Below the pieces are notes generated by a model that did no database searches, was not told the origin of the DNA, and saw nothing but the letters and a program-made list of their open reading frames with translations. Of a DNA stretch of 64,000 nucleotides, positions 58,050 through 59,320 are shown one piece after another (positions within the stretch are counted from its first letter, which is position 1; every line of letters starts with the position of its first letter). A program made the translations under genes and the position numbers. The DNA comes from Candidatus Obscuribacterales bacterium (GTDB lineage Bacteria > Cyanobacteriota > Vampirovibrionia > Obscuribacterales > Obscuribacteraceae). The stretch is taken from assembly GCA_965228855.1 (NCBI GenBank), contig CBDDIJ010000003.1, forward strand, positions 3,392,001 through 3,456,000, read 5' to 3'.

Positions 58050-58303
58050 CTGCCTCGAATGTACGGATAAAAATACGATTCAGTCAGCTCCATTGGCAGC
58101 TTCAACTGCTGCTGGCATTATGGTGTCCATGGGCGCGGATCATGGCAGAATCGGCATCGCCGCAACTCTACCGCAATCAGGTCGCGCCCCTCAAGGTAAG
58201 CCAAAAGCTATGGTTCGACTCCATAAACTTCGAAGGCAGCTGAAAAGCAACGAACGATGAGCCTTGCAGAACGCTCAAGCTAGCGGTCTCCGCTCATCGT
58301 TCG
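58050..58303 (+). ncRNA. Candidate structured ncRNA / 5' leader with a tRNA-like T-arm
   Basis: T-arm TATGG-TTCGACT-CCATA (58209-58225); long-range pairing 58050-58059 with 58229-58239; stems 58093-58115, 58131-58189 and a perfect 12-bp stem 58251-58262/58292-58303. Confidence 0.55.
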
Positions 58304-58372
58304 AGCCCGAGAAAATATCGCTCGCATTTTGGCTGGATAAAACCAATATGAAGCCTTCAGGAGGTGATTGTC

Positions 58373-59155
58373 GTGGACAAGGTTATGGTTCTTTCTCTTT
58401 TGCTTGCAATTGTTATAGTCGCCGCAGCGGTGAAGTCAGTGCTCAAGCTGTTTACGAAGGTTCTCGTTTATGAAAACGAAAGAGCCTTGCTCTATCGCGA
58501 CGGTAAGTTCGTGAAGACCCTTGAGCCCGGAAAATATTGGTTGTGGAACAGAAACATCCTGATCAAACGTATGGACATTCGGGCACAGTGGTTGCACGTC
58601 GCCTCGCAGGAATTGCTTACGTCAGACAACATGCAAGTCAAAATCAGCCTCGCAGTGCAGTACAGAGTGCTGGACGTATACACCGCCCTGGAGCTGGTTG
58701 AGAACCACTACGCGACACTATATACGATGGCACAGCTAGCCCTTCGCGAAGCAGTTGCACCAATGAAGCTCGACGAGCTGATGATCGCAAGAGATGCGGT
58801 TGCAGAAACTCTATCAAAAGCGCTCACGCCCAAAGCGGCAGAATTCGGAGTAGAGGTGATTTTGGTCGGTGTTCGAGACATAATGCTGCCTGGTGAAGTA
58901 AAGAAGATCATGTCGCAGGTTGTAAAGGCACAGATGGAATCAAAAGCAGCTTTGGAAAAAGCTCGCGGCGAAACCGCTGCATTGCGTTCTCTGGCGAACG
59001 CAGCCCGCATGCTCGAATCAACGCCTGGTTTGATGCAGTTGAGACTGATGCAGTCTCTCAATGAATCTACAGGCAACACGATTGTCTTCGGTGCTACTTC
59101 GAACGGATTGCTTCTGCCGAGCAATCCGAGGAAAACAGACCCAGCGTCGGAGTAG
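58373..59155 (+). CDS. SPFH/band-7 (slipin) family protein
   Basis: AGGAGGTG RBS plus GTG; N-terminal TM; VYENERALLYRDG, QELLTSD, GVRDIMLPG, ARGETAALRSLANAAR. Confidence 0.92.
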   Translation: MDKVMVLSLLLAIVIVAAAVKSVLKLFTKVLVYENERALLYRDGKFVKTLEPGKYWLWNRNILIKRMDIRAQWLHVASQELLTSDNMQVKISLAVQYRVLDVYTALELVENHYATLYTMAQLALREAVAPMKLDELMIARDAVAETLSKALTPKAAEFGVEVILVGVRDIMLPGEVKKIMSQVVKAQMESKAALEKARGETAALRSLANAARMLESTPGLMQLRLMQSLNESTGNTIVFGATSNGLLLPSNPRKTDPASE

Positions 59156-59174
59156 TGATTGAACGGCTATTGCA

Positions 59175-59214
59175 AGCGGAAACCCGTACTGCTGAGGTGG
59201 TGCGGGTTTCCGTT
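59175..59214 (+). other. 18-bp RNA hairpin 3' of the slipin gene
   Basis: AGCGGAAACCCGTACTGC-TGAG-GTGGTGCGGGTTTCCGTT; all non-Watson-Crick pairs are G.U on the plus strand; no U-tract. Confidence 0.7.
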
Positions 59215-59320
59215 CGTCAGACGGGCGTTGCCAGTATGTTTTAATATTGTTTGAAACAGCCGTGAGTGGCGATTCGAGTCGAACCAACGACTTCAGGACG
59301 GATATCGAACCCAGGGAATC

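What the first reader, a model, noticed from the sequence alone, without database searches (positions are those of the whole stretch)
58050..58303. tRNA-like structured RNA directly upstream of a slipin (band-7) gene
Seen: the roughly 430-bp intergenic region holds a canonical T-arm (5-bp stem TATGG/CCATA, loop TTCGACT, G-C closing pair). It is followed by a strand (58229-58239) that pairs with 58050-58059, enclosing about 190 nt like an extended acceptor stem. Inside lie a GGGCGCG/CGCGCCC stem and a hairpin at 58093-58115 whose loop reads either TTCAACT (second T-loop-like) or CTTCAA (one base short of a Sec anticodon loop). A perfect 12-bp stem follows. No normal 76-90 nt cloverleaf can be built. 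Knowledge (recalled, to be verified): band-7 genes have been reported next to tRNA-like ncRNAs in RNA-repair loci with RtcB/TROVE. Inference: a membrane-anchored slipin plus an enlarged tRNA-mimic RNA forming a stand-alone RNP or leader module, with no RtcB or TROVE gene in this window.
Basis: partly seen in the sequence, partly recalled or inferred. Interest (0 to 1): 0.8.

Follow-up and report, generated by a model that had tools for sequence, protein, structure and literature searches.

The report
tRNA-remnant RNA heading slipin gene
A roughly 180-base RNA sequence with a strongly conserved predicted fold and a leftover tRNA arm sits in front of one kind of membrane-scaffold (slipin) gene in at least three bacterial phyla, matches no catalogued RNA family, and is likely that protein's own RNA partner in a response to damaged translation.

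Summary
The element runs from about 58131 to 58311. It has a long hairpin capped by an AUC triloop, then the T-arm, then a three-way junction with a near-invariant internal loop. The 58050-58059 stem and the 58093-58115 hairpin lie upstream of or on the predicted promoter and carry mismatches in a close relative.

Covariance models built without this window score it at 45 and 40 bits. The 3' model hits 93 of 100 slipin loci (58 used in training), with strong covariation. All 41 genome-wide hits precede a short membrane-anchored slipin. Many relatives keep a vestigial anticodon arm. Rfam and ARAGORN find nothing. RtcB lies beside the gene in only 4 of 113 loci. This genome has two RtcB genes elsewhere and no TROVE match. 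No riboswitch-like alternative pairing was detected.

Best reading (0.45): a reduced, stand-alone relative of the predicted b7a-tRNA that likely binds its own slipin. Binding and function are untested. The scan appears to have noted this family before in other genomes (e1-7178068, e1-9519112).

The parts
58093..58124 (+). Predicted sigma-70-type promoter: -35-like TTGGCA; -10-like CATTAT or TATGGT (TATAGT in L001 and run X1).
   Evidence: In the family a TAnnnT box ends 3-12 nt before the first helix in 27 of 61 members, against 3.9 expected. The transcription start is inferred, not mapped.
58131..58189 (+). Domain 1: long irregular hairpin capped by an AUC triloop (58156-58158). The window copy departs from two near-invariant family positions in the central helix.
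   Evidence: Model R2, 45.0 bits with the window held out; covariation; loop census
58190..58208 (+). Linker with a D-loop-like AGGUA. Many relatives keep a vestigial anticodon arm here; this copy has lost it.
58209..58225 (+). Canonical tRNA T-arm (5-bp stem, 7-nt loop)
   Evidence: present in 50 of 62 non-redundant members
58228..58311 (+). Domain 2: three-way junction. Shortened closing helix 58228-37/58305-11; tetraloop hairpin 58239-48; 12-bp helix 58251-62/58292-303; near-invariant asymmetric internal loop 58263-69/58288-91; lineage-specific longer apical hairpin.
   Evidence: Model R1, 40.0 bits with the window held out; covariation
58312..58365 (+). Lineage-specific spacer of about 40 nt plus the Shine-Dalgarno sequence (58360-58365). 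58353-58364 can pair with 58228-58237 and is predicted to hide the SD in this copy.
   Evidence: folding prediction only, and not a family feature
58373..59155 (+). Short slipin (SPFH/band-7), 260 aa from the GTG 7 nt after the SD (the ORF finder's first GTG is 58364). N-terminal hydrophobic helix, stomatin-like fold.
   Evidence: Pfam Band_7 E=2.6e-31; homologues named 'slipin family protein'; model pLDDT 86; best Foldseek match human stomatin E=4e-19

Best explanation
This is a conserved, likely single-fold RNA of about 180 bases, likely descended from a tRNA-like ancestor, that is likely transcribed as the front end of the slipin message and likely serves as the binding partner of the membrane-anchored slipin encoded just behind it. 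Proposed steps: (1) Transcription starts at the first helix (inferred from -10 spacing). (2) The RNA folds into a 5' hairpin, a tRNA remnant and a three-way junction (helices shown by covariation). (3) The slipin oligomerises into a stomatin-type cage on the inner membrane (inferred from the fold) and binds the two near-invariant internal loops (inferred, untested). (4) The complex would hold a tRNA-elbow mimic at the membrane for tRNA- or ribosome-handling proteins during translation stress. Because the last helix ends about 6 nt before the ribosome-binding site, binding would also feed back on slipin synthesis (both inferred).
For: Strict coupling to one protein clade: all 41 genome-wide matches lie directly upstream of a short slipin (28 of 107, 9 of 151, 1 of 151 and 3 of 41 genomes; checked). 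16 of them were found RNA-first, outside the training set. None occurs in the 68 of 107 genomes of the order that lack this slipin, and neighbouring genes vary freely. One fold: the 26 strongest APC-corrected covarying column pairs are all model pairs, and no cross-domain Watson-Crick covariation appears among the top 70. Median folding z is -3.4 and core length is 170-208 nt. Conservation is concentrated in two internal loops and the T-loop. tRNA ancestry: T-arm in 50 of 62; an anticodon-arm-like hairpin in 18 of 40 long linkers against 2.8 in shuffles; a D-loop-like GG motif in 34 of 50 against 11.3. RNA-repair link: RtcR-RtcB-RtcA clusters in L058, L079 and L103. In a quick tree short and long slipins group together against two stomatin paralogues, and long slipins carry tRNA-like genes in RtcR clusters. 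An Anabaena slipin gene is co-repressed with rtcB and a tRNA array by TrcR (PMC10272220). The soluble parts are basic (median pI 9.1; 62 of 109 above 9, against 11% of sampled genome proteins). Extra sequence between RNA and RBS is tolerated (about 40 nt here, about 390 nt in L045). One sludge metatranscriptome gives a 159-nt contig covering only the RNA (weak).
Against: No binding data, and I found no paper showing a bacterial SPFH protein binding RNA. The long slipins that sit with tRNA-like genes are acidic (pI 5.5-6.3, 4 of 4), and one of two stomatin paralogues is also basic. The RNA occupies exactly the 5' UTR (median 19 nt to the start codon), with no conserved terminator (U-run in 14 of 93) and no CCA (2 of 62), which suits a pure cis-regulator equally well. 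Coupling to one gene also follows from shared descent. RtcB is adjacent in only 4 of 113 loci (many flanks are short). An RtcB of the type tested occurs in 27 of 39 slipin genomes against 33 of 68 others (kin-confounded). The T-arm is absent in 12 of 62. Three other RNA runs gave only coding pieces. Whether the Anabaena slipin carries this RNA was not tested.
Confidence: 0.45

Rival explanations
1. Pure cis-regulatory leader: the RNA senses a small molecule, a tRNA-binding protein or stalled translation, and sets slipin translation in the manner of the tRNA-derived yjdF riboswitch, without binding the slipin.
For: It spans the inferred start site to the RBS. There is precedent for a tRNA-derived leader whose T-loop arm pairs with the SD and for cis tRNA folds that raise translation (PMC9142559). 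Where the SD is predicted to pair with the core, the partner is the linker/T-arm in 17 of 20. T-arm:SD pairing beats swapped partners in a 15-locus subgroup (p=0.011). In the window the SD is predicted to be hidden.
Against: SD pairing with the core occurs in 20 of 49, no more than with shuffled cores (54 of 98). The swap test is null overall (p=0.11, n=49) and in the other 34 loci (p=0.87); the positive subgroup is related and was one of three tests. No covarying alternative helix. Never found before another gene family.
Confidence: 0.3
2. A processed, free-standing tRNA mimic that acts in trans as a decoy for tRNA-cutting nucleases or as a cofactor for RtcB, merely co-transcribed with the slipin.
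For: Vestigial anticodon loops, 13 of 18 beginning Y-U-G. Position inside RtcR-RtcB-RtcA clusters and directly behind tRNA genes in L110. The RNA-only contig in run X8. The proposed cofactor role of b7a-tRNA and YrlA (10.1101/312249).
Against: The anticodon arm is undetected in 22 of 40 long linkers and in the window, and the T-arm is lost in 12 of 62, while the non-tRNA domains are kept. No acceptor stem or CCA. No release signal seen. Never found apart from the slipin.
Confidence: 0.17
3. A decayed tRNA or chance hairpins without function.
For: Part of the element is tRNA-derived. The window copy is among the lowest-scoring members (40 bits against up to 101), with a shortened closing helix and changed near-invariant bases, so it may be partly relaxed.
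Against: Compensatory changes in 33 of 38 pairs on a structure-blind alignment, conservation across at least three phyla, and no substitution in 58188-58270 against L001.
Confidence: 0.05

Closest known systems
[quoted passage not shown] The original was not held; seen only through the Discussion of 10.1101/312249, which calls it experimentally unvalidated.
   Same: Non-coding tRNA-related element directly upstream of a slipin; in 3 of 113 family loci it lies in an RtcR-RtcB-RtcA cluster; short and long slipins are close relatives.
   Different: No cloverleaf, acceptor stem or D-arm. Two non-tRNA domains carry most of the conservation. The partner is a short membrane-anchored slipin (hydrophobic N-terminus in 104 of 110), usually without rtc genes. 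Five long-slipin leaders score at most 13.4 bits on the 3' model and match the 5' model mainly through the T-arm.
Pelobacter carbinolicus mutant tRNA-Asn Pcar_R0061 upstream of a stomatin-like gene, rtcA and rtcB (PMC3543383, section 6 read)
   Same: tRNA-derived RNA at the head of a stomatin-like gene, kept by reciprocal mutations; several family members have Asn-type GUU vestigial loops.
   Different: That RNA is a full cloverleaf in an rtc operon; this one keeps only the T-arm and sometimes an anticodon arm.
YrlA / bacterial Y RNAs with Ro60 (PMC4201824 passages; 10.1101/312249 Discussion)
   Same: T-arm-bearing tRNA mimic encoded beside its proposed protein partner; a subgroup has the GG-bearing loop 3' of the T-arm, as YrlA has its D-arm.
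   Different: No TROVE match in this genome, and one in only 4 of 39 slipin genomes. The Ro60-binding motif occurs in 2 of 62. No Rfam YrlA match at the leaders searched.
yjdF riboswitch (PMC9142559; abstract and section 8 read)
   Same: tRNA-derived 5' leader with a T-loop close to the RBS.
   Different: No Rfam match, a different and larger architecture, and no family-wide T-arm:SD pairing.
Eukaryotic vault particle (major vault protein plus vault RNA; search listing only)
   Same: SPFH-domain cage associated with a small RNA; major vault protein is a weaker fold match (E=4e-9).
   Different: The protein is a 260-aa stomatin-like membrane protein, and no RNA homology was tested or seen; analogy only.

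Membership tests
b7a-tRNA system | Encoded next to a Band-7 domain gene | tested here: met
   41 of 41 genome-wide matches
b7a-tRNA system | RNA strongly resembles an authentic tRNA | tested here: not met
   ARAGORN 0 in the window and none on the element in the 58 family loci among 60 scanned; no Rfam tRNA match on it; acceptor-like pairing in 8 of 50
b7a-tRNA system | RtcB encoded adjacent | tested here: not met
   Both RtcB genes are far from the window; adjacent in 4 of 113 family loci
b7a-tRNA system | Match to the authors' own alignment or model | not testable with these tools
   Paper and supplements not held; they may already include such leaders
YrlA / Y RNA | Ro60 (TROVE) gene in the locus or genome | tested here: not met
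   (genome 95% complete; the control rang in 2 of 14 genomes)
YrlA / Y RNA | GNCGAAN0-1G motif near the 5' end | tested here: not met
   Absent in the window; 2 of 62 members
YrlA / Y RNA | T-arm | tested here: met
   Window and 50 of 62 members
YrlA / Y RNA | T- and D-loops form a tRNA elbow | tested here: inconclusive
   GG motif enriched beside the T-arm (34 of 50 against 11.3 shuffled; 4 of 12 where the T-arm is lost), but there is no conserved D-stem and the contact cannot be shown
tRNA / tRNA-Sec / tRNA pseudogene | Cloverleaf with acceptor stem, anticodon arm and CCA | tested here: not met
   the Sec-like loop lies in the predicted promoter
yjdF-type riboswitch | T-loop arm pairs with the SD in an off state | tested here: inconclusive
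   Null overall; weak signal in one 15-locus subgroup
yjdF-type riboswitch | Ligand binding controls translation | not testable with these tools
   Needs probing and reporter assays
T-box riboswitch | T-box antiterminator sequence and Rfam model | tested here: not met
   0 of 62 with the (recalled) T-box consensus; no Rfam match. The AUC triplet is a triloop closed by a covarying pair, unlike an open specifier loop.

The most novel reading that the evidence does not exclude
A bacterial, membrane-anchored counterpart of the vault particle: a stomatin-like cage that captures its own 180-base tRNA-derived RNA through two dedicated binding domains, displays a tRNA-elbow mimic at the membrane during translation stress, and uses the same binding to shut off its own synthesis. 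It would be the first bacterial SPFH ribonucleoprotein that I could find described, and a minimal two-part system in which to test the unvalidated band-7/tRNA-like RNA prediction.
Probability: 0.25. Interest if true: 0.85.

Novelty: new variant of a known kind. Interest (0 to 1): 0.6.

Why it matters
The pairing of band-7 proteins with tRNA-like RNAs in RNA repair was predicted in 2016 and was still unvalidated in the 2018 source I could read. This family reduces the pairing to one gene and one compact RNA with a well-supported secondary structure and a few near-invariant bases. 'Does an SPFH cage bind RNA?' therefore becomes a simple pull-down and reporter experiment. If the answer is no, it is still an uncatalogued cis-regulatory RNA candidate found in at least three phyla.

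Tried and rejected
- Rfam on the window stretch and on 15 + 16 loci: nothing on the element.
- Kissing of the AUC triloop with the domain 2 loop: no covariation.
- Anti-SD role of the conserved CCUCC strand: it reads CCCCC in 38 of 92, covarying with its native partner, and it was the SD partner in 0 of 20 predicted cases.
- T-box-like sensing of tRNA-Ile: no T-box sequence.
- Viral contigs: 2 pattern matches, both inside a long phage gene, with no slipin and no surrounding fold; taken as chance.
- Chloroflexota sample: only the training genome matched, 1 of 151. With 24 candidates scored per genome this shows low sensitivity, not absence; the window's own genome was missed under the same setting.
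- My first SD-spacing count picked SD-like words inside the helix and was redone.
- Sequencing runs gave contigs only, so no ends, strand or level. X1 is probably DNA; X2, X3, X4, X6 and X7 gave no cover of the RNA, which is no evidence.
- The tree is the quick version; the careful search did not finish, and the place of the long slipins is unresolved.
- No complex prediction was run: it cannot take RNA, and a homo-oligomer would pass by likeness to stomatin.
- Literature searches for b7a-tRNA, slipin + tRNA, slipin family + RNA, SPFH + RNA motif, SPFH + rtc genes and band 7 + tRNA-like + noncoding RNA listed no paper describing this RNA. I read listings, not every paper, and the library lacks most subscription journals.

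Full report
OBSERVATION. ARAGORN finds no tRNA in the window, and Rfam has no family match on the element. The downstream gene is a Band_7 protein whose named homologues are 'slipin family protein'. Its likely start is GTG 58373, 7 nt behind a GGAGGT site, giving 260 aa. The closest named record is Ca. Obscuribacterales at 97% identity.

BOUNDARIES. I gathered 113 slipin loci: 3 from named genomes, 30 from the window's order and 80 from metagenomes. Their upstream regions share one structure. Two covariance models were built without the window or its near-twin L001: R1 for the 3' part (58 sequences) and R2 for the 5' part (31 sequences). The structures were set by hand after RNAalifold had found most helices. 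R1 matches 58214-58320 at 40.0 bits, against 11.7 for the next hit, and is the only match in the genome. R2 matches 58115-58229 at 45.0 bits, against 11.5 for the next hit. The paired core is 58131-58311, which folds at z=-2.72.

The 58093-58115 hairpin lies on a promoter-like site. Against L001 there are 12 substitutions in 58050-58130 and none in 58188-58270. A contig of a related strain shows 10 in 58054-58122 and 3 in 58131-58308. In the family a -10-like box ends 3-12 nt before the first helix in 27 of 61 members, against 3.9 expected. The RNA therefore likely begins at the transcription start.

STRUCTURE. R1 matches 93 of the 100 loci given to it. 13 of the 113 were left out as self, duplicates or too short, and 58 of the 93 were training sequences. 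Of the 7 misses, 3 lack upstream DNA, 1 has a 5'-truncated slipin, 2 match R2 only and 1 is a divergent protein. On the structure-blind alignment 33 of 38 pairs show two-sided changes, and the covariation score is 0.589 against 0.239 shuffled and at most 0.183 slid. For the 5' part it is 21 of 27 pairs and 0.383 against 0.185. Model-fitted alignments give 37 of 38 and 25 of 27 (these lean towards the model). With sequence weighting (88 loci, effective number 67) the 26 strongest covarying column pairs are all model pairs. The most conserved positions are the internal loop of domain 2 (three columns invariant in 93 of 93), the central helix and bulge of domain 1, the AUC triloop and the T-loop. 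The window copy is divergent. Its closing helix is shortened, its apical hairpin is lengthened, two near-invariant domain 1 bases differ, and about 40 extra bases precede the SD.

tRNA REMNANT. 50 of 62 non-redundant members have the T-arm. In 18 of 40 linkers of 15 nt or more, a hairpin with a 7-nt Y-U loop precedes it (shuffles: mean 2.8, maximum 7), and the would-be anticodons vary. A D-loop-like GG motif flanks the T-arm in 34 of 50 (shuffles 11.3) and occurs in 4 of 12 members without a T-arm (linker limits came from the model and are rough). Acceptor-like pairing is possible in only 8 of 50, and CCA follows the last helix in 2 of 62. I infer a tRNA remnant set between two non-tRNA domains.

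PARTNER AND CONTEXT. Genome-wide searches with R1 gave 28 of 107 genomes in the order, 9 of 151 in the phylum sample, 1 of 151 Chloroflexota and 3 of 41 Hydrogenedentota. All 41 matches lie directly upstream of a short slipin; 16 were new loci found RNA-first. None was found in the 68 order genomes without this slipin. Sensitivity is limited: known copies were missed. The proteins have a hydrophobic N-terminus in 104 of 110 and a stomatin-like fold. Neighbouring genes are not conserved. RtcB and RtcA each lie nearby in 4 of 113 loci, 5 loci in all, three of them with RtcR. This genome has two RtcB genes elsewhere and no TROVE match. In the order, TROVE occurs in 4 of 39 slipin genomes and 15 of 68 others, and the tested RtcB type in 27 of 39 and 33 of 68. 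Five longer slipin loci from the plasmid collection do not match R1. Two have tRNA-like genes, and they group with the short slipins against two stomatin paralogues in a quick tree.

MECHANISM. Shown: a conserved, covarying fold between a likely promoter and the RBS, tied to one protein clade. Not detected: any alternative structure. The SD pairs with the core in 20 of 49 folds against 54 of 98 controls. T-arm:SD complementarity is no better than swapped partners overall (p=0.11), though it is in one related subgroup of 15 (p=0.011). Inferred: an RNA that keeps one fold, conserves internal loops and follows one protein is most simply that protein's ligand. The basic soluble domains fit this reading, but the acidic long slipins do not. 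The last helix ends a median 6 nt before the SD, so binding could also limit translation. The stress link is indirect. It rests on the RtcR clusters, on a 42-fold rise of an Anabaena slipin transcript when the translational-stress repressor TrcR is deleted (PMC10272220, passages), and on its co-induction with rtcB and the tRNA array in another study (PMC9938897, one passage). Whether that slipin carries this RNA is untested. Expression evidence is weak. In one sludge metatranscriptome the only near-identical piece over 7.5 kb is a 159-nt contig at 58137-58295 (depth 2.8), while three other RNA runs gave only coding pieces. Contigs cannot show ends, strand or level. I put slipin-binding partner at 0.45, slipin-independent cis regulator at 0.30, processed trans-acting mimic at 0.17 and no function at 0.05.

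KNOWN AND NEW. It likely works like the predicted Band-7/b7a-tRNA pair, but it is not a b7a-tRNA as defined in the source I could read: no tRNA fold and no adjacent RtcB. It fails the Y RNA and T-box tests.

Papers seen:
- 10.1101/312249: passage and Discussion.
- PMC4201824, PMC10272220, PMC9938897, PMC6514570: passages.
- PMC3543383: section 6.
- PMC9142559: abstract and section 8.
- Burroughs and Aravind 2016: not held; its supplements could already contain such leaders.

Seven targeted searches listed no description of this RNA. The scan's own notes hold what appear to be the same family in two other genomes and larger tRNA-bearing slipin RNAs in others; these are unchecked notes, not independent support. 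Verdict: a real, uncatalogued RNA family; a new variant of a predicted but unvalidated kind; interest 0.6.

Noticed in passing
G000:C3:724518-727973 (minus strand): An array of 21 ARAGORN-called tRNA genes, with further T-arms that ARAGORN missed; reminiscent of the silent trn array co-regulated with rtcB and a slipin in Anabaena.
   Followed up: partly
L115 and L116 (G000:C3:154342-155637 and C2:961072-962199): Two RtcB genes; the first follows a 144-aa ORF that looks like an archease (recalled, not scanned). Neither has this RNA or a tRNA nearby.
   Followed up: partly
L146:2350-2455: Behind two tandem tRNA-like genes of an RtcR / long slipin / RtcB cluster in Photobacterium lies a three-way junction with the same style of internal loop as domain 2; only 13.4 bits, seen by eye.
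   Followed up: partly
window 58095-58110: A short inverted repeat over the predicted -35 box and spacer, with one compensatory change in two relatives; could be a repressor site.
   Followed up: no
L045:3615-3955: An insertion of about 390 nt with two similar imperfect palindromes, like IS200/IS605 ends (recalled), separates the RNA from its slipin gene.
   Followed up: no
L046, L050, L060, L069, L073, L080, L097, L105 and kin: A subgroup in which the GG-bearing hairpin lies 3' instead of 5' of the T-arm and the T-arm 3' strand can form up to 7 pairs with the SD region.
   Followed up: partly
L110:2-152 and L079:4971-5314: tRNA genes directly upstream of the RNA (L110) or downstream of the slipin (L079).
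   Followed up: no
window 59157-59215: A long inverted repeat right after the slipin stop codon, without a clear U-run; not called by the terminator scan.
   Followed up: no
L062:539-782: Group II intron fragments upstream of the RNA on the opposite strand.
   Followed up: no
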